A stretch of DNA of 16,606 nucleotides, taken from the IMG/VR virus record IMGVR_UViG_2623620506_000007, positions 1-16,606 of that record. One strand, 5' to 3'. Under the pieces are notes generated by a model. That model was not told the origin of the DNA. It was given only the letters and a program-made list of their open reading frames with translations, and searched no databases. Positions 1 through 15,341 of this stretch are shown one piece after another. Position 1 is the first letter of the stretch. Every line of letters begins with the position of its first letter. Made by a program: the position numbers and the translations under genes. The stretch comes from a virus (lineage: Duplodnaviria; Heunggongvirae; Uroviricota; Caudoviricetes).

Positions 1-84
1 ATGGCGGGTTATTTGTCCTGGTTATTCCCCCGTTGTAAAATCTCTCCTAAACTTAACGGTACGGCACCACACTTCGGGGATGAA

Positions 85-276
85 ATGTTCGCGCTGGTAC
101 TTTTTGTTTGCTACCTGGATGGCGGTTGTGAAGATATTGTTGTGGATGTCTACAACACGGAACAGCAGTGTCTTTATTCTATGAGCGATCAACGGATCCG
201 CCATGGCGGTTGTTTTCCGATTGAGGATTTTATAGATGGTTTCTGGCGACCTGCACAGGAGTACGGTGATTTTTAA
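85..276 (+). CDS. yebW: Small conserved protein, YebW-like (63 aa from the internal ATG at 85)
   Basis: ORF 1..276 in the track; the internal ATG at 85 gives a 63-aa product. It is convergent with pphA, which matches the yebW-pphA arrangement I recall from E. coli K-12. Identity rests on synteny and recalled size, not a search. Confidence 0.4.
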   Translation: MFALVLFVCYLDGGCEDIVVDVYNTEQQCLYSMSDQRIRHGGCFPIEDFIDGFWRPAQEYGDF

Positions 277-933
277 TTATTGCAATTGCACAAGAGTCAG
301 TTCGCCCCCAAAGACAGCACCGGTATCAATATAATGCAGGTTGCCAATATCCACGCGATGTCGCAACGGTGTATGACCAAACCAGAAATAATCAGCACCT
401 GTAATTCCCTGCCCTTTTTGGCGTTCACCTAATCGCGAGCGGCTCCACAAGACCTGATGCAAATCAACGTCCTTTTGCCATTCATAAACATCATCTGGAT
501 AATCGGCATGAGCAATAACATGTTTGCCGGTACGACTGTGTACTTCAAGAATAAAGGGCAAATGCTGACATTTTTCCAGCGCCGTTTTCGCTTGTTTCTG
601 TTGATTATCTGCCAGCGCAATAAACCAGTCGCCGCCATTCATCAACCACAAAGACATCTGCTGAGATGCCAGCGCATCCATCGCCATCTGTTCATGATTG
701 CCTCTTACCGCACGAACCCAATGTTGTTCCAGTAACTGCAGACAACGTAAACTTTGCGGCCCACGATCGATAACGTCTCCCACTGAGATAAGTAAATCTC
801 GCCACGGATCAAAACGACAATGCCATAATTTGCGGCGCAACTGCTCAAGACAACCGTGTATATCGCCAGAAAGCCAGATATGTCGCCATTGATGACCCGC
901 AATTCTCTGATAAACGGGCGCAGGCTGTTTCAT
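277..933 (-). CDS. pphA: Serine/threonine protein phosphatase 1, PP1/2A/2B (calcineurin-like) metallophosphatase
   Basis: Metallophosphatase motifs GDIHG, GDVIDRG and GNHE are present in the 219-aa track ORF. The first codon in the track is TTG; the ATG at 933..931 gives 218 aa, preceded by GGAGG about 9 nt upstream. The N-terminus matches my recollection of E. coli PphA/PrpA. Confidence 0.9.
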   Translation of the reverse strand: MKQPAPVYQRIAGHQWRHIWLSGDIHGCLEQLRRKLWHCRFDPWRDLLISVGDVIDRGPQSLRCLQLLEQHWVRAVRGNHEQMAMDALASQQMSLWLMNGGDWFIALADNQQKQAKTALEKCQHLPFILEVHSRTGKHVIAHADYPDDVYEWQKDVDLHQVLWSRSRLGERQKGQGITGADYFWFGHTPLRHRVDIGNLHYIDTGAVFGGELTLVQLQ

Positions 934-1060
934 CAATATTTTCCTCCCGCGCTAAAGATCACATAATCTTAACAAGAATGTTAAAAAACGCTGGACTCAG
1001 ACAGTAGAGTGTGTGTTATGGTTGACTATAAAGTCAGCGAAGGGAATGCTTCTGGCTTTT

Positions 1061-1093
1061 AACAGATAAAAAGAGACCGAACACGATTCCTGT
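1061..1093 (-). ncRNA. sdsR: 3'-terminal fragment of sRNA SdsR/RyeB (terminator half plus U-tract); putative att core
   Basis: The minus strand reads ACAGGAAUCGUGUUCGGUCUCUUUUUAUCUGUU, which matches the 3' end of SdsR as I recall it. The 5' half of the terminator stem that should follow (CCGAACAC) is replaced by CGUAAAC, so similarity stops near 1094. The rest of the sRNA gene is absent. Confidence 0.4.
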
Positions 1094-1104
1094 TTACGCC
1101 CCAA

Positions 1105-1155
1105 TCAATAAAAACCCTTTAAATTCATCGTCATAATCCATAAAACCCTTCAAAA
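1105..1155 (+). repeat. Two direct copies of ATAAAA(A)CCCTT(T/C)AAA about 31 bp apart; candidate integrase arm-type sites
   Basis: caATAAAAACCCTTTAAAttc at about 1108-1123 and ccATAAAACCCTTCAAAAac at about 1140-1155, in non-coding DNA just inside the putative att junction. Confidence 0.3.
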
Positions 1156-1386
1156 ACAACGATGCAATACTTACCATTGCGTTCTTTCAAGATCAAACTT
1201 TTGCCAATCTATTCGAGTGCGCGACGAGTAAATTTCGTGGCGTCATAATCGTTGATTTAATTATCGCGCATTTGCAAAACTATGCGCAGCTCCTTCCAGA
1301 AATCACCTCGGCTTGTTTACAGCCACCCCGACCGCCGGCACAATCGCCACCGATCTGTTTGTATGATTTATGGTGCGCACCGCCTT

Positions 1387-2655
1387 TCAACGGACAATCA
1401 ACAAATCAGAAAATCTTGTCGTATATCGAGGCGACAGCATTTCCCTTTTCATTTGCCACTGCTGCTGAACGCCCTGGCCAGCAAAGTAAATCGTTCCCCT
1501 ACCGTCTTTGGCATTAAGATTATCCAGCAACTCCATGAGCTTCTCGCTGCCTGCCCGCGGCGCGTTCTCATCAAAGAGATTAAGCTGAGCGACACCCTGA
1601 CTGAAGAAGTCGCCAAGCATGACGCCGGCTTTCTGATACCGATGGCCGTCTCGCCAGATTTTGTCCAGGCACTTTACCGCCGCATTGATTATGTCCCGGC
1701 TGTCCTGCGTGGGAATAAGAAGCTTAATTGATGCACTGTTGCCATAGTAGGGTTCATTAAGGGCAAAGGGGCTGGTCTTCACGAAGGCTGAGATAAAGCG
1801 GCAGTACTGATGCTCACCGCGCAGTTTCTCCGCCGCGCGTGCAGCGTAGCTGCAGATAGCCTGGCGCATCTGCTCATAATCGGTAACCCGCTCGCCAAAA
1901 GAGCGGGAGCAGACAATTTCCTGTTTCGCCGGCGCAAACTCCTCCAGTTCAAGGCATGGCTCGCCGCGCAGTTCCCGCACGGTACGCTCCAGCACCACAT
2001 TGAAGTGTTTTCGGATAATCCATGTGCCCTGCTCTGACAGGTCCAGCGCGGTTTTAATGCCCATTGCGTTGAGCTTTTTGCTGATGCGCCTGCCGACGCC
2101 CCAGACATCCTCCACGGGAACGAGAGACATTAGCCGACGCTGGCGATCGACGTTCGACAAATCCACTACGCCGCCGGTCTGCCGCTGCCATTTTTTCGCA
2201 GCGTGATTAGCAAGCTTCGCCAGGGTTTTGGTCTGGGCAATGCCGACGCCCACGGTAAGATGTGTGTTCTGCAAAACCGTAGCGCGAATTTCCCTTCCAA
2301 AATCTTCCAGGTTCCGGCAATTCCGTACGCCAGTGAGATCGCAAAAGGCCTCATCGATTGAGTATATTTCTACGCGAGGGCTCATTTCCTCGAGCGTTGT
2401 CATTACACGCTGGCTCATGTCCGCATACAGCTCATAATTGGAACTGAAGCAGACCACGCCGTAGCGACGGAACAAATCTTTCTGCTTAAAGAAAGGCTCG
2501 CCCATTTTAATGCCCAGCTCTTTCGCCTCCGCAGAACGGGCAATAACACATCCATCATTGTTAGAAAGCACGACCACCGGCCGCCCTTTCAGGTCTGGTC
2601 TAAATACCGTTTCGCAGGATGCGTAAAAAGAATTTACGTCACAGAGCGCGAACAT
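1387..2655 (-). CDS. umuC: UmuC, catalytic subunit of error-prone DNA polymerase V (Y family), 422 aa
   Basis: From the ATG at 2655 the product starts [22 protein letters not shown] and runs full length with the beta-clamp motif QLNLF. It is very similar to enterobacterial UmuC from memory. The track start at 2670 is a longer alternative; the ATG at 2655 overlaps the upstream stop as TGATG. Confidence 0.95.
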
Positions 2656-2930
2656 CACATCACCGGGCAATCATCAAAGTCAGTCGGTTCGCCAGAATGC
2701 GTTAAGATACCGACCAACTGAACATACTCCAGTGATTCCCCTTCAATGGCCTCACCTTCTTCAGTAATCAGCGCATTCCCAGCTTTATACGCATATTGCT
2801 GGCGACCGCAAAACCATATCAGCAATGTGACGCTGGCGTAAGCATGTCTCTCGCACTCTTCTGGAACGTCTAACATTTCGATATTAGGTAAGCTACCGCA
2901 TACCTCAAAGTTCTCTGTGTAATCAATCAT
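2655..2930 (-). CDS. Small acidic 4-Cys protein (91 aa) in the position normally held by umuD; function unknown
   Basis: ATG at 2930 with AAGGGG 7-12 nt upstream, LexA box and promoter directly upstream, and stop overlapping the umuC start (TGATG). No S24 peptidase hallmarks (no GDSM-type serine, no TVKK-type lysine), and it is too short for UmuD (about 139 aa). The other two frames are full of stops, so this is not a frameshifted umuD. Confidence 0.65.
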
Positions 2931-6189: not shown

Positions 6190-6543
6190 TTATGCCTCGC
6201 TGGTAAGGGTGGTTTGTCCGTAGATAGTGTTTATGGTGGCTGTGAACGTAACCCGGCGTGTCGTGCTTTCATTCACGGTATCAAAGGCCAGGATGGACAG
6301 AACGCCAGGCGTGGTGCTGATGCGATCCCTGATCGCAAGGTTATAAACCTCAGGCCTTTGCTTTCCCAGAACAGACTGGATATAGGGTGTGCCCGCGGTC
6401 GTGTCCAGAAACCACTGGCCCTTCCACAGTTCAAAGCGAGTTTTTACGGCCTGGGCCACGCACTCAGGGGAGTTGATCAGGAAAGTATCATCGCCCTGGC
6501 CGAAGGTGTAGTCTCCGTCTTCGTCTTCGCGTCGGTATCGCAT
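6190..6543 (-). CDS. Baseplate wedge protein, GPW / gp25-like
   Basis: 117 aa between the spike and J-like genes. The segment AQAVKTRFELWKGQWFLDTTAGTPY fits the gp25/GPW pattern as I recall it. Confidence 0.5.
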   Translation of the reverse strand: MRYRREDEDGDYTFGQGDDTFLINSPECVAQAVKTRFELWKGQWFLDTTAGTPYIQSVLGKQRPEVYNLAIRDRISTTPGVLSILAFDTVNESTTRRVTFTATINTIYGQTTLTSEA

Positions 6544-6545
6544 AA

Positions 6546-7199
6546 TTACCCCCCCAGTGGTTTCGTATTGCTGCCGCCGCTTTCCACGCCGCCATGCGTA
6601 TGCTTATCAACCATTGAGCCATCCACCAGCTGCAGGCGGCCGTCAGGCAGAATTTTCAAACCGTTGAGGTTAAAACCTCCCGGCGCAGTTCCCGTTATCG
6701 CTCCGGTTGAAGGATTAAGACTCAACCTGGTACCACCGTCGTCGCTGCGCAGTTCAACCGCACTGGTACTGATGCCGCTGATTTTCTTTGCCTGCGACTG
6801 CGGCCCCACTATGGCAAACGCATCACTCAGGTCATGCTGGCGCGGGTCAACCGGTTCCTGTACCCCGCCGCTCTGCCACCAGAAGTCGATGCAGCGATCC
6901 GAGAAGACCAGGAGGCATTCGTCACCGGACTTTACCGGGAAAGTTAAAGTGCAGCCGCCGCCGCGGGGAAACACCACCGGAACGTCTGGCAGGATCGGTA
7001 TCTCCTCAGAAACCAGAGCACCATCGTCGCCGAGCCGCTGACCATAGATGGCCGGCTGCACGGTGCATGTCACTGTTTCAGGGTCAAAGGACTGGATGAT
7101 CCCCGGCAAAGCCACGCGCAAGCTGCCGAAAATGGCGTGGCGATGCGCCTCAAGGGTCTGCGATTCGTTGCCGTCCTGCGCGCGGGCTGATACTGGCAT
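6546..7199 (-). CDS. Baseplate spike / assembly protein V-like (Mu gp45 / P2 gpV type)
   Basis: 217 aa with a Gly-rich C-terminal tip carrying HTH (VDKHTHGGVESGG), as in the metal-binding apex of gpV-type spikes. GGAGA lies 7-11 nt upstream of the ATG at 7199. Confidence 0.65.
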   Translation of the reverse strand: MPVSARAQDGNESQTLEAHRHAIFGSLRVALPGIIQSFDPETVTCTVQPAIYGQRLGDDGALVSEEIPILPDVPVVFPRGGGCTLTFPVKSGDECLLVFSDRCIDFWWQSGGVQEPVDPRQHDLSDAFAIVGPQSQAKKISGISTSAVELRSDDGGTRLSLNPSTGAITGTAPGGFNLNGLKILPDGRLQLVDGSMVDKHTHGGVESGGSNTKPLGG

Positions 7200-9301: not shown

Positions 9302-9876
9302 GGTCCCCTCGCAAAATCAGCTATTTTCTGAATTACAGATGAACTGCTGGTCGGCACCAGAGATTTCATCCCTGTATTTTGTACTGGCGCAGTGCTGACC
9401 CCTTCCTGCATGTTGGCCTTATCCGTAACAGTGATGCTCTGCGTATCAGACATGATCACTTCCCGGAGCGTCAGAACGCATGACAGCACATTTTCGCTGG
9501 TCCGGTCCGTGGTGACCTCGATAGCGCGTATCAGCATATTGCTGTAGGTGCGCTTGCCGGTGACAACATCAAACGGCACCCGGGATTGTTGCAACTCCAG
9601 CAACTGCTGATAAATCTCCCTCGGGCTCTCGCCAACCCGCAAGCCTATGCTGGACAGATTCACCAGGTCGAGTACCGACCCGCCGCCGGCAAATCCGCAC
9701 TCCATAGTGACCTCACTGGCGCGCTTATAGGCGTGGTCGTTTATAGCGGCGCCAAACTCCACCGGATGTTCAGTAATTTCCAGAGCATCAACATGCTTCT
9801 CCGATACCACCACGTCAGGCACAAAAATACCTATTTTCCGAGACTGCAGCCGGAAGATGGCCGACAAAATATCCAT
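9298..9876 (-). CDS. Tail protein, function unknown (192 aa), directly after the tape measure gene
   Basis: Its ATG at 9876 overlaps the tape measure stop (ATGA). Confidence 0.5.
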   Translation of the reverse strand: MDILSAIFRLQSRKIGIFVPDVVVSEKHVDALEITEHPVEFGAAINDHAYKRASEVTMECGFAGGGSVLDLVNLSSIGLRVGESPREIYQQLLELQQSRVPFDVVTGKRTYSNMLIRAIEVTTDRTSENVLSCVLTLREVIMSDTQSITVTDKANMQEGVSTAPVQNTGMKSLVPTSSSSVIQKIADFARGP

Positions 9877-11864
9877 CAGTAGACCCTCGGTTGTAGCTGC
9901 TGAGTGAGACGGGAGTTAACGCCGGATTGACGATCGGCAACCTCCCGGCCAGTGGATGCCGGGTCGCTCGCGCCGTAAATGTTGATGTTCGTTTCCTGGC
10001 TAATCTGAGCTGGTGCGCCAGCCCCCACTCCAGCAGCCATAGTTACCAGTTCGCTTGGATATGGGTTGCGTCCGTTTTCATGGTGGATAATCCCATTCAT
10101 GAGTGATGACAGCACCTGAGGATCTTTCAGGTTCAGTGCGGTATCTGGCGCGACACCGAGTAATTTAGAGAGCTGCGAAATATACGCCTCAGTGTTGTTT
10201 TCACTATCTGGTGCCCAGGTTGAGATGATTTCACTTAGTGTCTGCAAAGGCTTGCCCGTTGTTTTGCCTTCAAAGTAACGCATCAACTGCCGTGCCATTG
10301 CTTTCAGCCCATCAAATGCAGAGCCAAATTTGGCAAATCGCCCTCCTGCCCTCTCTAACTGGGCGCCTTCCTGCCCTTTGAAATCGAGGTTGCCTGGGTT
10401 GTTATTTCTGATGCCACGAGGCAAAGCTGATTGAGCGTGCTGATCTGGGTCTTCCTCACCAGTAAACCATCTGCCAATGCTTCGCGGATCAAAACCAGTC
10501 CGGCTCTTAATCCACTCGGCGGTATTATTCGCGCTATCCGAAACAGCCGGCAAAGCATCGGGATTATCTCTTCCCTGCGCCAGCAGGTTCTTGCCGATCG
10601 CATAAGCATCAGACCACCGGCCCTCGTTGATGGCGTTAATCAGATCGCCAATCATCTTGATCATCTTGCCAAACTCACCGAACTGCCGGGTAAGATTTTC
10701 GATGTCGCCTTTAAGGGTCCAGTTTTTGAGGTTGATATTGAGCAGCTTAGCGATTTCAACTCCTATCGCCTTCACGGAATCCCGCAGCTCGGCCAGCGAT
10801 TTCAGGGCAGCCTCTATTTCTGGCTCCCATTTATCCCAGGGCAGCAGGCTTTGACCGCCTTCTTTCCAGGTTTTGTAGTCGTCGTATAGCGCGAACAGCG
10901 CCGAGCCTAGCGCGATTACGATACCTATCGGCGATTTGAGGAACTCAGTGTTAAGCAACTGCCAAGCCGAGACCAGCCCGGACACAAGCATGATCAGCTG
11001 CTGTATATCGGGCGGCAGTTTTTTGAACCACTCAATCAGGCCACCTACCGCCTGCGAGACGCGCCACGCCATCTGGGTAATGACATCAGCAGCAAAGAGC
11101 ACCCCCTTCACTATCTTCGTGACCACGCTCTCTATCTTCGGCCAGTTCTCCAGCATCTGCTTGCTGAGATTGTTCAGCGTGCCGCTCAGGCCGCCGGCCA
11201 GATTCGAGCCAACCTTATCGCGCAGGATCCCCAGTAGCGAAACGAAGTTGCGCATGGAGGTCATGAACTTGTTGGACTGCTGCGCGGCCTTGTCAGCATC
11301 AAAGCCTGTCTTCTGCATCATCGACTGGTATTCAGCCGTGAAGCCGGACATTCCGCGCCGCATTGCCATCAGCGTGTTTTCGTCAATGCCCAGCATCTGC
11401 GCGAACTGGTTGGCACGATAATAGGGCATGGTGCTGAGGCGCTGGCCGACGCCGGTGAAGATAGCCGACATGTCACGCATCTGTCCGGAAGCGTCCCGGG
11501 TCTGCACCCCAAGGCGGTTCAGGAAGCCTTCGGCTCCGGGATTGCTGCGCATGAAGCGTGCCAGGCTCTCCAGTGAGTTCTGGGCAGCCTCGGCGCTGGA
11601 GCCGGTTTGTGAGGCAGCGTAGCCAAGTGCCTTGATGCCGTTGACCGATGCCCCGGTGCGTTCCGCGGCCCAGTAGAGTTTATCCAGGCCGCTGGCGATC
11701 GAGGCAGTGAGGCCCACGATGGCCAGCCCCGTTGACTCAACCACGGCCCCCAGTTTTACGACGTTTGCAGCCACACCTTTGAGCGTGGCTTCAAATTTCG
11801 CCTGGCCGGCGCCATCAATGTCGAACCCCAGAGAGACCAGGTAATCACGGATAGTATCAGCCAT
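9876..11864 (-). CDS. Tail tape measure protein (662 aa)
   Basis: Position after the chaperone, size, and Ala/Gly/Gln-rich helical sequence. There is a hydrophobic segment at about residues 290-327 and a distinct motif-rich segment at 483-605 (RGIRNNNPGNLDF ... HHENGRNPYP). GGAG lies about 13 nt upstream of the ATG at 11864. Confidence 0.85.
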   Translation of the reverse strand: MADTIRDYLVSLGFDIDGAGQAKFEATLKGVAANVVKLGAVVESTGLAIVGLTASIASGLDKLYWAAERTGASVNGIKALGYAASQTGSSAEAAQNSLESLARFMRSNPGAEGFLNRLGVQTRDASGQMRDMSAIFTGVGQRLSTMPYYRANQFAQMLGIDENTLMAMRRGMSGFTAEYQSMMQKTGFDADKAAQQSNKFMTSMRNFVSLLGILRDKVGSNLAGGLSGTLNNLSKQMLENWPKIESVVTKIVKGVLFAADVITQMAWRVSQAVGGLIEWFKKLPPDIQQLIMLVSGLVSAWQLLNTEFLKSPIGIVIALGSALFALYDDYKTWKEGGQSLLPWDKWEPEIEAALKSLAELRDSVKAIGVEIAKLLNINLKNWTLKGDIENLTRQFGEFGKMIKMIGDLINAINEGRWSDAYAIGKNLLAQGRDNPDALPAVSDSANNTAEWIKSRTGFDPRSIGRWFTGEEDPDQHAQSALPRGIRNNNPGNLDFKGQEGAQLERAGGRFAKFGSAFDGLKAMARQLMRYFEGKTTGKPLQTLSEIISTWAPDSENNTEAYISQLSKLLGVAPDTALNLKDPQVLSSLMNGIIHHENGRNPYPSELVTMAAGVGAGAPAQISQETNINIYGASDPASTGREVADRQSGVNSRLTQQLQPRVY

Positions 11865-12102
11865 TATTCTGGGCTCTCCATTTGGCTACAAGCGCGTCGT
11901 TATCGTCACGCATATCGAGGTAATCGTTAAGCAGCGCGATGCGGCACAGGTCCACTGCACCGCTGTCGAGGTCTTTCTGATCGAGGTTAAAAGCGAGCGC
12001 CGGACGCAGGATGTAGTCTTCCCCGCCCGGCATCGTATTGAAGGTTATTCCGCTGGCGGGGTGTTCGTCTCGCTGGTAGGGAGTCCTTGCAAAAAATTTC
12101 CC
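11857..12102 (-). other. -1 frame extension ORF of the tail assembly chaperone, reached by a putative programmed frameshift
   Basis: Frame-0 sequence CUG GGA AAU UUU UUG holds overlapping slippery heptamers G_GGA_AAU and U_UUU_UUG (plus 12090-12102). The -1 frame is then open for about 69 codons through the gap to a TGA at 11859..11857, overlapping the tape measure start. The gap is otherwise unannotated. Confidence 0.45.
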
Positions 12103-12470
12103 AGCGAATCGGCGACCACCCGCGCCACAAGCTGCAGCATCACGAACAGGTCGATATCATCAAAGGCCATGGTGCCCTGCTGGCACACCGGCACCCAGGC
12201 GCTCATATGCTTGCGCGCTACCACCTGCAGGCAGGGAAAAAGGATCGCATTCACGTCGTCATCACTGAGGCCGGAAACGGCGCCAGCGATCTTCGGCAGA
12301 ATACTTTCCATCGCGCCTTCGGTGTCTTTGGCATTCAGCTTCGTCTGGATGTTACGGAAGTCAGAAACCAGACCCGCCAGAACCGGCAGCAGCTTGCGGG
12401 ATACCTTTAGCTGTTCGAAAACGCTTAACTTAGCGATACGGTACTGCTGATCCTTGATAGTAATTTCCAT
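12045..12470 (-). CDS. Tail assembly chaperone (lambda gpG / P2 gpE analogue)
   Basis: 141 aa between the tube and tape measure genes, acidic C-terminal half, with a frameshift-accessible extension downstream. Confidence 0.7.
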   Translation of the reverse strand: MEITIKDQQYRIAKLSVFEQLKVSRKLLPVLAGLVSDFRNIQTKLNAKDTEGAMESILPKIAGAVSGLSDDDVNAILFPCLQVVARKHMSAWVPVCQQGTMAFDDIDLFVMLQLVARVVADSLGNFLQGLPTSETNTPPAE

Positions 12471-12473
12471 GAA

Positions 12474-12914
12474 TTAATACTCCCCCAGGAACGGGTCGAT
12501 TTTGATGCAGTCGAACACCCAGGCCACCGTCCCGCCCTCTTTGGCGTTCTGCCAGTCGGGGTGCTTCTGAAAGGCGCCGCCGCGCGCGGTCATGATGTCG
12601 CCAGATGCAGTGTTGCGGAACACAAAGACGTTATTGCCCCACAGCGCGGAAGACTGACTTTGTGCGTTGTAGGCCAGGGACAGCTTTTTGTTTACCGGCG
12701 AGGTTTTCAGGAGGTTAACGGTTACCGTTCCAGCCTTGCCGGCGTGCAGGGAGTGCATGCCCTCACCGTCAGCGCCGATCGTCATGGTGTTTTTATTTTC
12801 AACCATGGCGACGGTGATGCCCTCTTCTGAGTTGGCAGAACCGGCGCCGAGGTCAATCACCCCGGTGGGGCCAGTCATTGACCCCGTGATATCCAGAAAA
12901 GAATAAGTGCTCAT
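12474..12914 (-). CDS. Tail tube protein
   Basis: 146 aa immediately downstream of the sheath gene, typical size and position. G-rich RBS before the ATG at 12914. Confidence 0.7.
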   Translation of the reverse strand: MSTYSFLDITGSMTGPTGVIDLGAGSANSEEGITVAMVENKNTMTIGADGEGMHSLHAGKAGTVTVNLLKTSPVNKKLSLAYNAQSQSSALWGNNVFVFRNTASGDIMTARGGAFQKHPDWQNAKEGGTVAWVFDCIKIDPFLGEY

Positions 12915-12925
12915 TCAGTGCCCCC

Positions 12926-14416
12926 TTAGCGCACCACGTCGATTAATACATCAGCGAAGTGGATAGCCCCCGCCAGTTTGGTTGCTACCTGAATCACCGG
13001 CGCCTTACGCGCTTCACGATCTGCCTGCGCCTGGGCGTTGAGCGGGTTCGCATAAACGTAATAGCCTTTGGTCAGCATATCGCCTGATGTCAGCTGTCCG
13101 ACGTCACCGCCGTTCCAGATCCCCGGTGCCACCAGACCGTTGTTTACAGACTGGTCCATAGACTGTTCGACATTGGTCACCAGGCGCGTCACGCCCGCTT
13201 CGGTCTGCGGGATTTTGGTGGTTGAGGTGTAAAGCAGGTTCCAGAGGTTGTTCTGGACGTAGTTCTGCAGCCAGTCGAGACCGTGGCGCTCGTCGAAGAA
13301 GTCGCCGTTCGACATCACGCCTTCCTGGATGATGGCGGTATCGTTGGCGTAGCGCACAAACACGTTGCAGTTTTTTGCCTTGAGCGTGTCGGCCTGCTGC
13401 GCGGTGATCGTTTCGGCAGTGATGCCCGGCTCCTGCTTGAATTTCAGGGTGATGGTGGTGTTGTTACCCAGGAAATTTACGGTGAACGCGCGACCGAAGG
13501 CGGAAGCTGCCGCATATGGCACCTGGCTGTACTGGCAAAACGTACGGCCATAACCAGCAGCTTTCAGCCTGTAGGCAATATCCGTGGTGCTGGTTGAGTC
13601 CAGGACCTCGGTCGCCGCAGTTGTCACACCGTACACCCGGGAATCGCTCGCAGAGCCGATCAGGGCAGATACATCGATATGGTCCTGGTCCGTCATTGCA
13701 GTATCGGCGATAACCAGTCCATACCAGTCGGCTGAGTAGTTCAGCGCTGTATTCACCGACGGCAGCACTGAGGATGAGGCATCCTGGCCGTTTGACACGG
13801 TGGGGTTATGCGCTGAGTCAATGCCCAGCAGCGGCGCCAGGTCAGTGCCTGTGCCGGCAGCAACAGGAATACCGATCGCCGAGGAGGCCCCGGTAGTGGA
13901 AGATGTCACCACAAACTGATTCGAGCCGGCCACGTAGGAAACGGTGGTACCGGTAAGTTTCGCAGTGACGGCGGTCGCTACTCCGGCCAGATCGGTCACC
14001 GCTGACAGGTCGATACCCGTTACGGTTTTAACAGTGCCGTCCACCGAGATCTTAATCGCACCATCGTCGATCGCGGTAAAGTTTGCTATCGCCTGCTCTG
14101 CAGAGGTCAGTACAGCACCAGTGAGCTTGCCGGCCGTTGCCGGGCTGGAGGCGCGTTCCAGTTTGCCGATATACAGATCGCGGGGCTGCGGCGACTGCTG
14201 GAAGTAAAGGTTTGCCGCCTTGTACTCTTCAGCGGTAGTGCCAAAGTCAGTGGCGACACTTTCGATATCCTGGTAAAGGCGCATCACTTCTGGGGCAGTG
14301 ATTACGTCGGCGGTGCCGAGAACCAGCAGCGCGCCGAAGTTACGCCCGGCCGCCGCGCGAACGGCGAGCGCGACCTGCACGCGAACGACGCGTGATACAG
14401 ATAAGCCGTTAGGCAT
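12926..14416 (-). CDS. Contractile tail sheath protein
   Basis: 496 aa, Thr/Ser/Ala-rich with a conserved-looking C-terminal region, followed by tube, chaperone and tape measure genes. GGAGA lies 8 nt upstream of the ATG at 14416. Confidence 0.85.
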
Positions 14417-14419
14417 GAT

Positions 14420-14971
14420 TTAATCTCCGAAAAATTGTACTGGAGCAGAGAGGATGGATTTGATGCCGTACTCGCGTACCGTCTTGCGCCGTAGCGTCAC
14501 GGACAGGTCGTAGCGGCGCTGCCACTGGTTGTTGACGAGCTCCGGTGCCGGGATGATTCGGCCCACCTCGCCGAGCGTGAGGCCGACGCGATTTAGTTCA
14601 GCATTGTTCTGGGACACGAACAGACCGTTACGAAACGTTTTGGCGTAAGCCTGGCCTGCAGGTCCGTAGAAACAGCAGAGCACCACCAGCGATTCGAATT
14701 GCCACTGGTAGTCGGTGTCGTCGTCTTTGGTTACGGATGCCGGGTTGGCTGTGTCCTGGAAGTCTGTGATACCAAACCCGCACCAGTTGGTGCCCAGCAC
14801 CGGGATCGCTGGCTGAGGGTCGGTGAAGCGTGGTATGGCCATGCCATCCGGCAGACCAGATACACCACGTATCCACCGGCTGAGCTCGCGCTCAAGCGCT
14901 TGGTCATACTGCGGCGCCGGGCTGACTGGCGTCAGGTAACCCGGTTGCGTGGTGTCATTCAACTGGAGCAC
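14420..14971 (-). CDS. Phage structural protein preceding the sheath (neck or tail-terminator candidate)
   Basis: The track ORF begins at a TTG at 15043 and overlaps the upstream gene by 89 nt. The GTG at 14971 with GGAG upstream is the preferred start; an ATG at 14842 is an alternative. Start is uncertain. Confidence 0.4.
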   Translation of the reverse strand: MLQLNDTTQPGYLTPVSPAPQYDQALERELSRWIRGVSGLPDGMAIPRFTDPQPAIPVLGTNWCGFGITDFQDTANPASVTKDDDTDYQWQFESLVVLCCFYGPAGQAYAKTFRNGLFVSQNNAELNRVGLTLGEVGRIIPAPELVNNQWQRRYDLSVTLRRKTVREYGIKSILSAPVQFFGD

Positions 14972-15341
14972 CCCCGTTAAACTCCACCAGCTCACAGTGG
15001 GCCTGAACGAACCCGGCGCCGTATGAGGTGTACGGATCCACAAAAGTTACGCGGTAATGCCGCCCGTTGTAGAGCACCACGTCGGCATCCTGCCCGGGCT
15101 GGCCCTGCGTTAAGCGGAAGGTGGTAATCACCAGGATTGCGCCGTCAATAACCTGCCCTGCCGCCATGCGCCGGGCTTCCAGCGAGCGGTCGACGGTAAC
15201 CACGCCGTTGAACGGTATATCCTCCGGCGTATTGGTCACGAAGCCGTCAGCATCTTTCGCCTGGTGGTTACGGATACAGACCAGCGTGTAATCGCAGAAA
15301 TCTGGATCCGACAACACATCGGTTACATCGAGAAAAGGCAT
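14955..15341 (-). CDS. Phage head-tail joining / neck protein candidate (128 aa)
   Basis: Part of the translationally coupled string upstream of the sheath (TAATG overlap at 15341). Function inferred from position only. Confidence 0.4.
   Translation of the reverse strand: MPFLDVTDVLSDPDFCDYTLVCIRNHQAKDADGFVTNTPEDIPFNGVVTVDRSLEARRMAAGQVIDGAILVITTFRLTQGQPGQDADVVLYNGRHYRVTFVDPYTSYGAGFVQAHCELVEFNGGAPVE

What the first reader, a model, noticed from the sequence alone, without database searches (positions are those of the whole stretch)
11857..12110. Programmed -1 frameshift site joining the tail chaperone to an unannotated 180-bp extension
The 181-bp gap between chaperone and tape measure is fully open in the -1 frame and ends in a TGA that overlaps the tape measure ATG. 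Just upstream, the chaperone frame contains CUG GGA AAU UUU UUG with two overlapping slippery heptamers. This is the conserved G/GT-type arrangement of tailed phages and predicts a fusion of about 196 aa that the ORF track misses. Because the heptamers overlap, the exact shift site is ambiguous. The gap also has an in-frame ATG (12033) that could yield an independent 58-aa product.
Basis: partly seen in the sequence, partly recalled or inferred. Interest (0 to 1): 0.5.

Follow-up and report, generated by a model that had tools for sequence, protein, structure and literature searches.

The report
Tail chaperone -1 frameshift site
This is an ordinary example of the long-known ribosomal frameshift that lets tailed phages make a short and a long tail-assembly chaperone from one gene; here it sits in an enterobacterial myovirus prophage, and standard annotation misfiles the extension as a separate small gene of unknown function.

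Summary
All genes lie on the minus strand. The chaperone gene (12470-12045, Pfam Phage_TAC_15) contains CUG GGA AAU UUU UUG at 12104-12090. That stretch carries three overlapping X_XXY_YYZ heptamers, not two. The -1 frame is open from 12156 to a TGA at 11859-11857, which lies inside codons 2-3 of the tape measure gene (ATG 11864). The predicted fusion is 204 aa, not 196.

In 150 of 153 related loci the -1 frame stays open for 73-83 codons. It shows coding periodicity and encodes Pfam DUF6889. GGA-AAT-TTT are the only codons in the chaperone with no synonymous variation among 116 distinct sequences. The ATG at 12033 is kept in only 6 of 123 relatives and lacks a good ribosome-binding site, so an independent 58-aa protein is unlikely. 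No conserved downstream RNA structure exists.

Comparative data and published E. coli rules favour A_AAU_UUU (12099-12093) as the main shift site.

Homologous sites in phages Mulock and Magia already carry frameshift annotations. This is a new member of a known kind and of low interest. No experiment in this family has yet demonstrated the shift.

The parts
12045..12470 (-). Tail assembly chaperone gene, zero frame, 141 aa (short product, the 'G' or TAC-N analogue)
12090..12102 (-). Slippery patch G GGA AAU UUU UUG with three overlapping X_XXY_YYZ heptamers: 12102-12096, 12099-12093 and 12096-12090
   Evidence: Read directly. GGA AAT TTT TT is invariant in 122 distinct relatives while neighbouring synonymous sites vary freely. 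G124, N125 and F126 are the only 3 of 71 conserved-residue columns with a single codon.
12093..12099 (-). A_AAU_UUU, the most likely principal shift site
   Evidence: It is the only heptamer with every position invariant in the enterobacterial set. Phage Magia has C_CCU_UUU at the homologous codons. H_HH.U_UU.Y motifs are in the high-efficiency class in E. coli, whereas G_GG.A_AA.U and U_UU.U_UU.G are not (PMC4066793). This assignment is an inference.
11857..12093 (-). -1 frame extension, 78 codons plus TGA (the 'T' or TAC-C analogue). It overlaps the chaperone's last 49 nt (stop codon included) and the first 8 nt of the tape measure gene.
   Evidence: The frame is open. A -1 ORF of 73-83 codons is present in 150 of 153 related loci. 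Codon-position entropy after the zero-frame stop is 0.64/0.52/1.28, and in the overlap it is 0.80/0.56/1.01 in -1 frame phase.
11866..11979 (-). DUF6889 domain within the extension (conserved L..G.VDL..IA..ND.L....DN..R...WR)
   Evidence: Pfam PF21829 DUF6889 E 5.9e-12 and phrog_4364 E 1.1e-16. Alignment of relatives. Predicted C-terminal helix after a disordered linker in the model of P0022.
11857..12033 (-). 58-aa ORF from ATG 12033, judged not to be an independent gene but the distal part of the extension
   Evidence: ATG is at this column in 6 of 123 distinct relatives, and CTN or TTA Leu codons in 109. The best anti-SD duplex upstream is -3.5 kcal/mol, against -8.4 and -6.4 for the chaperone and tape measure starts.
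9876..11864 (-). Tape measure protein gene (662 aa), the presumed client of the chaperone
   Evidence: phrog_2276 tail length tape measure protein E 1.3e-227, with a lytic transglycosylase-like region near residues 478-612.
12116..12121 (-). SD-like GGGUGG 15-16 nt 5' of A_AAU_UUU, a possible weak upstream stimulator (a hint only)
   Evidence: The rare Arg codon CGG is used in 100 of 123 sequences here, against 11% elsewhere in these genes. The following Val is GTG in 112 of 116. The anti-SD duplex is -6.6 kcal/mol, but a median of 14% of other windows in the gene are at least as strong.
12474..14416 (-). Tail tube (12474-12914) and tail sheath (12926-14416) genes immediately upstream, which set the G/GT-type gene order
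   Evidence: Pfam KPP10_Orf10 E 7e-58 and DUF3383 E 4e-140; phrog_205 tail sheath.

Best explanation
This is a programmed -1 ribosomal frameshift of the lambda G/GT type in the tail assembly chaperone gene of a temperate myovirus prophage of Enterobacterales.

Most ribosomes translate the 141-aa chaperone and stop at 12045. A minority slip back one base on the patch G GGA AAU UUU UUG, most likely on A_AAU_UUU. There the P-site tRNA-Asn re-pairs from AAU to AAA and the A-site tRNA-Phe from UUU to UUU. These ribosomes continue for 78 codons in the -1 frame to the TGA at 11859-11857.

The result is a 204-aa protein. Its N-terminal chaperone domain is followed by a probably disordered linker and the small helical DUF6889 domain.

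By analogy with lambda gpG and gpGT, both forms would coat the tape measure protein through the shared domain. The rare extension would recruit the tube protein to start polymerisation. Neither form would stay in the virion.

What is shown here: the sequence anatomy, conservation of the site, coding in the -1 frame and the lack of an independent start. What is inferred: the slip itself, its efficiency, which heptamer is used and the role of the extension.
For: - Anatomy.
- Gene order sheath, tube, chaperone, extension, tape measure, with family hits.
- The extension matches DUF6889 (E 5.9e-12) and phrog_4364 (E 1.1e-16).
- 150 of 153 related loci from genome and viral collections keep a -1 ORF of 73-83 codons. 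It ends 188 nt past the zero-frame stop in 134 of them, and usually 5-8 nt into the tape measure gene.
- Third-position variability peaks in -1 frame phase, both after the stop and inside the overlap.
- GGA, AAT and TTT are used in 100% of sequences at the site, against 11%, 46% and 41% elsewhere in the same genes.
- They are the only three of 71 conserved columns with no synonymous variation.
- Distant relatives keep a heptamer at the same spot with different letters: Magia C_CCT_TTT, Acinetobacter G_GGA_AAT_TTT, Bordetella G_GGA_AAT, Ralstonia G_GGT_TTT_TTC.
- GenBank records for Klebsiella phage Mulock and Burkholderia phage Magia annotate a two-piece 'tape measure chaperone frameshift product' here. 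The Magia paper states that a programmed frameshift was identified (PMC7883833).
- Variants with a T7 run encode exactly the predicted junction ...SLGNFFA... as one ORF.
- G/GT biology: PMC5009743.
Against: No experimental evidence for the shift exists in this window or, as far as I found, in this protein family. The Mulock and Magia annotations are predictions.

No downstream stem-loop or pseudoknot was found: z-scores were -0.9 and 0.0 for the window, and the consensus over 36 diverse relatives had zero predicted pairs. Efficiency may therefore be low, although low efficiency without a stimulator is also typical of lambda G/GT.

The relatives were partly collected with peptide patterns that span the site. 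Amino-acid conservation there is therefore biased. The synonymous-codon test is not affected by this.

The sequences are phylogenetically related, so the counts are not independent events.
Confidence: 0.9

Rival explanations
1. The extension is translated independently as a small DUF6889 protein. It would start at ATG 12033 (58 aa) or another internal start, as PGAP and many phage annotations imply.
For: An ATG-initiated 58-aa ORF exists in the window. RefSeq annotates a separate 'DUF6889 family protein' in close E. coli relatives. PHROGs and the protein libraries hold many short ORFs of 46-74 aa for this region.
Against: ATG 12033 is a Leu codon (CTN or TTA) in 109 of 123 distinct relatives. 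No alignment column upstream of the domain has a start-type codon in half or more of the sequences. The upstream anti-SD duplex is weak at -3.5 kcal/mol. The PGAP start in the closest E. coli relative lies inside the domain and gives only 32 aa, so called starts look arbitrary. The -1 frame is conserved as protein (FARTP...) from the slippery site itself, upstream of any candidate start, and shows -1 phase selection inside the overlap.
Confidence: 0.04
2. The long form arises by transcriptional slippage. RNA polymerase would add one extra U on the T6 run (12095-12090), and standard translation of the edited mRNA would give the same fusion.
For: The T6 run is invariant in the enterobacterial set. 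A one-base insertion gives exactly the fusion seen in T7 variants. Homopolymer runs are known slippage sites (PMC5009743; PMC4066793).
Against: Distant relatives keep a heptamer at the same place but not a long homopolymer: Magia CCCTTTTA, Acinetobacter AAATTTTA, Bordetella GGGAAATAC. From my own knowledge, efficient slippage by bacterial RNA polymerase generally needs runs of about 8-9 or more. Invariance of GGA and AAT is explained by tRNA re-pairing and not by polymerase slippage on the T run.
Confidence: 0.04
3. There is no recoding. The open -1 frame and the heptamers are coincidental, and the gap is a non-coding spacer.
For: Single in-frame heptamers occur at chance frequency in this window (16 in 5026 codons). 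3.7% of positions have a -1 frame open for 78 or more codons. No stimulatory RNA structure was found.
Against: The Pfam and PHROG domain hits to the -1 translation, protein-level conservation with third-position periodicity across 123 distinct sequences, an open frame in 150 of 153 loci and the unique synonymous invariance of the slippery codons cannot be explained by chance.
Confidence: 0.01

Closest known systems
Bacteriophage lambda gpG/gpGT tail assembly chaperone frameshift (Levin, Hendrix and Casjens 1993; Xu, Hendrix and Duda 2004, 2013, 2014, as cited in PMC5009743)
   Same: Two overlapping ORFs lie between the major tail or tube gene and the tape measure gene. The second ORF is in the -1 frame and has no start of its own. 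[quoted passage not shown] No downstream RNA stimulator is evident. The N-terminal domain has a tail assembly chaperone fold.
   Different: No detectable sequence similarity: the Pfam families differ (Phage_TAC_15 and DUF6889). The host virus is a contractile-tail phage. The site has three overlapping heptamers, and the most likely one, A_AAU_UUU, uses tRNA-Asn and tRNA-Phe rather than tRNA-Gly and tRNA-Lys. Efficiency and product ratio are unknown.
Bacteriophage P2 E / E+E' frameshift (contractile-tail phage; cited in PMC5009743 as having 2- to 3-fold higher efficiency than lambda)
   Same: A myovirus context with sheath, tube, chaperone(s) and tape measure in that order, and a -1 shift into an extension that ends at the tape measure gene. 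From my own recollection P2 uses a U-rich heptamer (T_TTT_TTG), identical to the third heptamer here. I did not check this.
   Different: Unrelated protein families. The sheath and tube here belong to the DUF3383 and KPP10_Orf10 families, not the P2 FI and FII type.
Annotated frameshift products of Klebsiella phage Mulock (QFG06717.1) and Burkholderia phage Magia (QPB08698.1; PMC7883833)
   Same: True homologues of both parts: the extension is 42% and 37% identical. The join lies at the same conserved LGNF or LGPF motif. Mulock has the identical GGGAAATTTTTTG patch.
   Different: These are predictions in genome announcements without experiments or comparative analysis. Magia uses C_CCU_UUU instead.
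Tail assembly chaperone short and long isoforms (TAC-N/TAC-NC) made by -1 frameshift in Pakpunavirus and Andersonviridae myoviruses, at a GTTTTT motif (PMC12846349)
   Same: The same argument and the same kind of misannotation: the extension is routinely called a hypothetical protein, the -1 frame is uninterrupted across divergent genomes, and there is a conserved U-rich slippery motif.
   Different: A different phage group and different slippery context. I did not test homology of the chaperones.

Membership tests
G/GT-type tail assembly chaperone frameshift (Xu, Hendrix and Duda 2004 definition) | Located between the major tail or tube gene and the tape measure gene | tested here: met
   Order on the minus strand: sheath 14416-12926, tube 12914-12474, chaperone 12470-12045, extension, tape measure 11864-9876.
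G/GT-type tail assembly chaperone frameshift (Xu, Hendrix and Duda 2004 definition) | A second ORF overlaps the 3' end of the first in the -1 frame and lacks its own conserved initiation signals | tested here: met
   The -1 frame is open 12156-11860. No conserved start codon, and a weak SD at ATG 12033.
G/GT-type tail assembly chaperone frameshift (Xu, Hendrix and Duda 2004 definition) | A canonical slippery heptamer in the overlap, conserved among relatives | tested here: met
   Three heptamers at 12102-12090. GGA AAT TTT TT is invariant in 122 distinct sequences and is the only synonymously invariant stretch. Heptamers lie at the same spot in Burkholderia, Acinetobacter, Bordetella and Ralstonia phages.
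G/GT-type tail assembly chaperone frameshift (Xu, Hendrix and Duda 2004 definition) | The extension is under protein-coding selection in the shifted frame | tested here: met
   DUF6889 and phrog_4364 hits. Codon-position entropy 0.64/0.52/1.28. Alignment.
G/GT-type tail assembly chaperone frameshift (Xu, Hendrix and Duda 2004 definition) | A frameshifted fusion protein is actually made at a low fixed ratio, and both products are required for tail assembly but absent from virions | not testable with these tools
   Needs proteomics, reporter assays and genetics. No such data were found for this family.
Tail assembly chaperone fold (HK97 or lambda gpG-like) | The N-terminal domain adopts the chaperone fold | tested here: inconclusive
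Frameshift sites with a 3' RNA stimulator (dnaX or IS3 type) | A conserved stem-loop or pseudoknot 5-9 nt downstream of the heptamer | tested here: not met
   The MFE is not different from shuffles (z -0.91 and 0.02). RNAalifold over 36 diverse relatives predicts no pairs.
Frameshift sites with a 5' SD-like stimulator (dnaX or IS911 type) | A conserved Shine-Dalgarno-like sequence 6-17 nt upstream of the heptamer | tested here: inconclusive
   GGGUGG at 12121-12116 is kept through a rare CGG codon (100 of 123) and GTG (112 of 116). The predicted anti-SD duplex is only -6.6 kcal/mol and not exceptional within the gene. The spacing rule is from PMC4066793.

The most novel reading that the evidence does not exclude
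The invariant 13-nt patch may be more than a redundant slippery site. It could be a stimulator-free cassette in which three overlapping heptamers, plus an upstream SD-like GGGUGG, jointly set the short-to-long chaperone ratio and yield two junction variants (Phe or Leu). In addition, the T6 run could act as a mutational switch: T6 to T7 fuses the frames, as seen in some assemblies, and would turn tail production off or on in prophage populations.
Probability: 0.07. Interest if true: 0.4.

Novelty: new member of a known kind. Interest (0 to 1): 0.2.

Why it matters
The value is mainly for annotation. In hundreds of E. coli and other enterobacterial prophages, the region between the chaperone and the tape measure gene is either left empty or called a separate 'DUF6889 family protein' with an arbitrary start. 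The evidence here says DUF6889 is the frameshift-encoded C-terminal domain of Phage_TAC_15 chaperones. That gives the domain a probable role as the tube-recruiting 'T' domain, and it argues for a joined CDS with ribosomal slippage. It adds no new biology beyond the established G/GT paradigm.

Tried and rejected
- Downstream stimulatory RNA: I folded 113 nt and 60 nt after the site and ran a consensus fold over 36 diverse relatives. Nothing was found. A hairpin about 58 nt downstream in the window is too far away and is not conserved.
- Independent 58-aa gene: rejected on start-codon and SD conservation.
I used the natural in-frame relative P0022 instead.
- A census of the extension in the 1.84-billion-protein library gave only 16 hits. 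Most were short ORFs. Several were artefacts: the tandem-repeat proteins P0143, P0146 and P0147, and the chimeric P0150. It was uninformative beyond showing that gene callers start the ORF at arbitrary places.
- A literature search for DUF6889 found nothing. The Mulock paper does not mention the frameshift.
- I looked for heptamer-specific efficiencies for G_GGA_AAU, A_AAU_UUU and U_UUU_UUG in PMC4066793. Only class rules appear in the text; the values are in a figure.
- The second candidate site in the window, G_GGG_GGG at 6555-6549, has a -1 frame that runs into the next gene. I rejected it: the G run is the ribosome-binding site of that gene, whose ATG is at 6543.
Full report
**What is in the sequence.**

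All relevant genes are on the minus strand.
- The 141-aa ORF at 12470-12045 is a tail assembly chaperone: Pfam Phage_TAC_15 at E 9.7e-33 and phrog_1688 at E 1.4e-54.
- Upstream lie a DUF3383-type tail sheath (14416-12926) and a KPP10_Orf10-type tube (12914-12474).
- Downstream lies a 662-aa tape measure protein (11864-9876; phrog_2276, E 1.3e-227).
- After that come Dit-like, plug, hub, spike and baseplate genes.

This is the tail module of a temperate myovirus prophage. The closest matches are E. coli chromosomes at 95.5% nucleotide identity and IMG/VR proviruses whose chaperone is 99% identical at the protein level.

**Checking the observation.**

The zero-frame codons CTG GGA AAT TTT TTG occupy 12104-12090. 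Relative to the chaperone, the -1 frame is open from 12156 to 11860 and stops at TGA 11859-11857.

Three details of the finding need correction.
- The patch holds three overlapping X_XXY_YYZ heptamers: G_GGA_AAT, A_AAT_TTT and T_TTT_TTG.
- The TGA lies 3 nt after the tape measure ATG (ATGGCTGA) and does not overlap it.
- The fusion would be 204 aa, not about 196.

Shifts on the first two heptamers give the junction ...SLGNF-FARTP.... A shift on the third with tRNA-Leu gives ...SLGNFL-ARTP....

Single in-frame heptamers occur at chance frequency in the window (16 in 5026 codons). No other gene has a cluster of them. Only 3.7% of codon positions are followed by 78 or more open -1 codons.

**Is the -1 frame coding?**

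The translated extension matches Pfam DUF6889 (E 5.9e-12) and phrog_4364 (E 1.1e-16), both of unknown function.

I collected 78 loci from species-representative genomes and 80 from viral contigs, using an alignment of chaperone homologues. Of the 153 loci with a recognisable site, 150 have a -1 ORF of 73-83 codons after it. In 134 of them the ORF ends 188 nt beyond the zero-frame stop, and it usually ends 5-8 nt inside the tape measure gene. The three exceptions are a truncation, a deletion fusion and a T5 mutant.

Among 123 non-identical sequences the extension aligns as a conserved protein: FARTP...LP.GE.Y..RP......L..G.VDL..IA..ND.L....DN..R...WR. Nucleotide entropy by -1 frame codon position is 0.64/0.52/1.28 after the zero-frame stop. 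Inside the 46-nt overlap it is 0.80/0.56/1.01. Selection therefore follows the -1 frame from the slippery site onward.

**Is the slippery site selected?**

The collection patterns covered the DSLGNF peptide, so amino-acid conservation at the site is biased. The patterns were degenerate at synonymous positions, so codon choice is a fair test.

GGA, AAT and TTT are used in every sequence at the site. Elsewhere in the same genes they are used for 11%, 46% and 41% of Gly, Asn and Phe codons.

Of 71 conserved-residue columns in the chaperone alignment (116 distinct sequences), the only three with a single codon are G124, N125 and F126. The next lowest is L127, with TTG in 111 of 112. Flanking codons vary freely: Asp is GAC or GAT at 65:57, and Ser uses all six codons.

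**Which heptamer?**

The G before GGA is lost in eight distinct relatives, where the preceding Leu codon is CTC or CTT. One short fragment in the wider 153-locus set has CTA. G_GGA_AAU is therefore dispensable. The last base of U_UUU_UUN varies (G, A, U or C). A_AAU_UUU is invariant at all seven positions.

Distant homologues place a heptamer at the same protein motif:

| Phage | Heptamer(s) at the motif |
|---|---|
| Burkholderia phage Magia | C_CCU_UUU |
| Acinetobacter phage Ab105-1phi | G_GGA_AAU_UUU |
| Bordetella phage IFTN9 | G_GGA_AAU only |
| Ralstonia phage PY059YO380 | G_GGU_UUU_UUC |

Sharma et al. place H_HH.U_UU.Y motifs, which include A_AA.U_UU.U and C_CC.U_UU.U, in the high-efficiency class in E. 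coli. G_GG.A_AA.U and U_UU.U_UU.G fall outside the efficient classes (PMC4066793). I therefore favour A_AAU_UUU (12099-12093) as the main site, with a confidence of about 0.55. The Bordetella case shows the family can also use the first heptamer.

**Stimulators.**

The window sequence downstream of the site folds no better than shuffled sequence (z -0.91 and 0.02). RNAalifold on 36 diverse relatives predicts no pairs. This resembles lambda G/GT, which works at low efficiency.

Upstream, GGGUGG (12121-12116) is maintained by a rare CGG Arg codon (100 of 123 here, against 11% elsewhere) and by GTG (112 of 116). It lies 15-16 nt before A_AAU_UUU, within the 6-17 nt range used by Sharma et al. The predicted anti-SD duplex is only -6.6 kcal/mol and is not exceptional for the gene. 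I treat it as a hint.

**Rivals.**

- *Independent translation of the 58-aa ORF.* This is not supported. The ATG at 12033 is kept in 6 of 123 relatives and is a Leu codon (CTN or TTA) in 109. No column upstream of the domain carries a start-type codon in most sequences, and the SD is weak. PGAP's 'DUF6889 family protein' in the closest E. coli relative begins at a GTG inside the domain and gives only 32 aa.
- *Transcriptional slippage on the T6 run.* This is unlikely, because distant relatives keep a heptamer but not a long homopolymer, and because it would not explain the invariance of GGA and AAT.
- *Chance.* This is excluded by the domain hits and the conservation.

**Structure.**

I therefore modelled P0022, a 213-aa relative in which a T7 run fuses the frames and gives exactly the predicted ...SLGNFFA... 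junction.
- The chaperone domain (residues 1-136) is confident, and its last helix ends at the slip site.
- Residues 138-164 have low confidence and probably form a flexible linker.
- A C-terminal helix (184-210) corresponds to DUF6889.

**Comparison with what is known.**

Frameshifting between two tail chaperone ORFs is conserved across long-tailed dsDNA phages (Xu et al. 2004; review PMC5009743). True homologues of this very gene pair already carry a 'tape measure chaperone frameshift product' annotation in Klebsiella phage Mulock and Burkholderia phage Magia. The Magia paper states that a programmed frameshift was identified (PMC7883833). A 2025 paper makes the same argument for another myovirus group (PMC12846349).

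The finding is therefore a correct identification of an ordinary, well-known mechanism. The only modest additions are these:
- linking Pfam DUF6889 to the frameshift extension of Phage_TAC_15 chaperones;
- the clean synonymous-site signal at the slippery codons;
- narrowing the likely shift site to A_AAU_UUU.

No experiment has yet shown the shift in this family.

**Verdict.**

- Observation: confirmed, with three small corrections.
- Interpretation: supported, confidence 0.9.
- Novelty: new member of a known kind.
- Interest: 0.2.

Noticed in passing
window 12116-12121 (-): An SD-like GGGUGG lies 15-16 nt upstream of A_AAU_UUU. It is kept by an otherwise rare CGG Arg codon (100 of 123 relatives, against 11% elsewhere in these genes) and by GTG (112 of 116). 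The predicted anti-SD pairing is weak at -6.6 kcal/mol. It may be an upstream frameshift stimulator of the dnaX type.
   Followed up: partly
L165 2478-2490; proteins P0022, P0121 (E. coli ISC7, CDL28562.1): Some assemblies carry T7 instead of T6 in the slippery patch. This fuses the chaperone and DUF6889 into one 212-213 aa ORF with exactly the predicted junction. Matches of the same lineage listed from complete E. coli genomes (302 genomes cover at least 80% of the query) are one base shorter than the query, consistent with T6. The T7 forms are either rare mutants or homopolymer sequencing errors.
   Followed up: partly
window 6543-6555 (-): A G7 run (G_GGG_GGG) lies two codons before the stop of the spike gene (7199-6546), and its -1 frame runs straight into the next gene (6543-6190). 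The G run sits 6 nt before that gene's ATG, so it is most simply its ribosome-binding site and not a second frameshift site.
   Followed up: partly
window 12045-12093 (-): In the 46-nt overlap, the zero-frame second codon positions are the most variable (entropy up to 1.78). The C-terminal 15 residues of the short chaperone therefore evolve almost freely, while the -1 reading (FARTPYQRD) is constrained.
   Followed up: yes
window 277-2930 (-) and 1-276 (+): Cargo genes lie beyond the tail fibre genes: a UmuC-like Y-family DNA polymerase (1387-2670; IMS, IMS_C, DUF4113), a small ORF overlapping its start (2655-2930, no Pfam hit, possibly UmuD-like), a calcineurin-like phosphoesterase (277-936) and a DUF1482 protein (1-276).
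   Followed up: no
window 9876-11864 (-), residues about 478-612: The tape measure protein carries a lytic transglycosylase or endolysin-like region (phrog_873 and phrog_7182 matches). RefSeq relatives name the gene 'lytic transglycosylase'.
   Followed up: no
window 14420-15043 (-): The listed 207-aa ORF with a TTG start overlaps the upstream ORF 14955-15341 by 89 nt, and its Pfam match (Phage_tail_terminator_9) begins at residue 48. The true start is probably further downstream.
   Followed up: no
L077 (Apirhabdus apintestini), L014, L068: Three related loci break the pattern: a T5 run that shifts into the wrong frame, a truncated extension, and a deletion that fuses the extension to a downstream structural gene. 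They look like decaying prophages.
   Followed up: no
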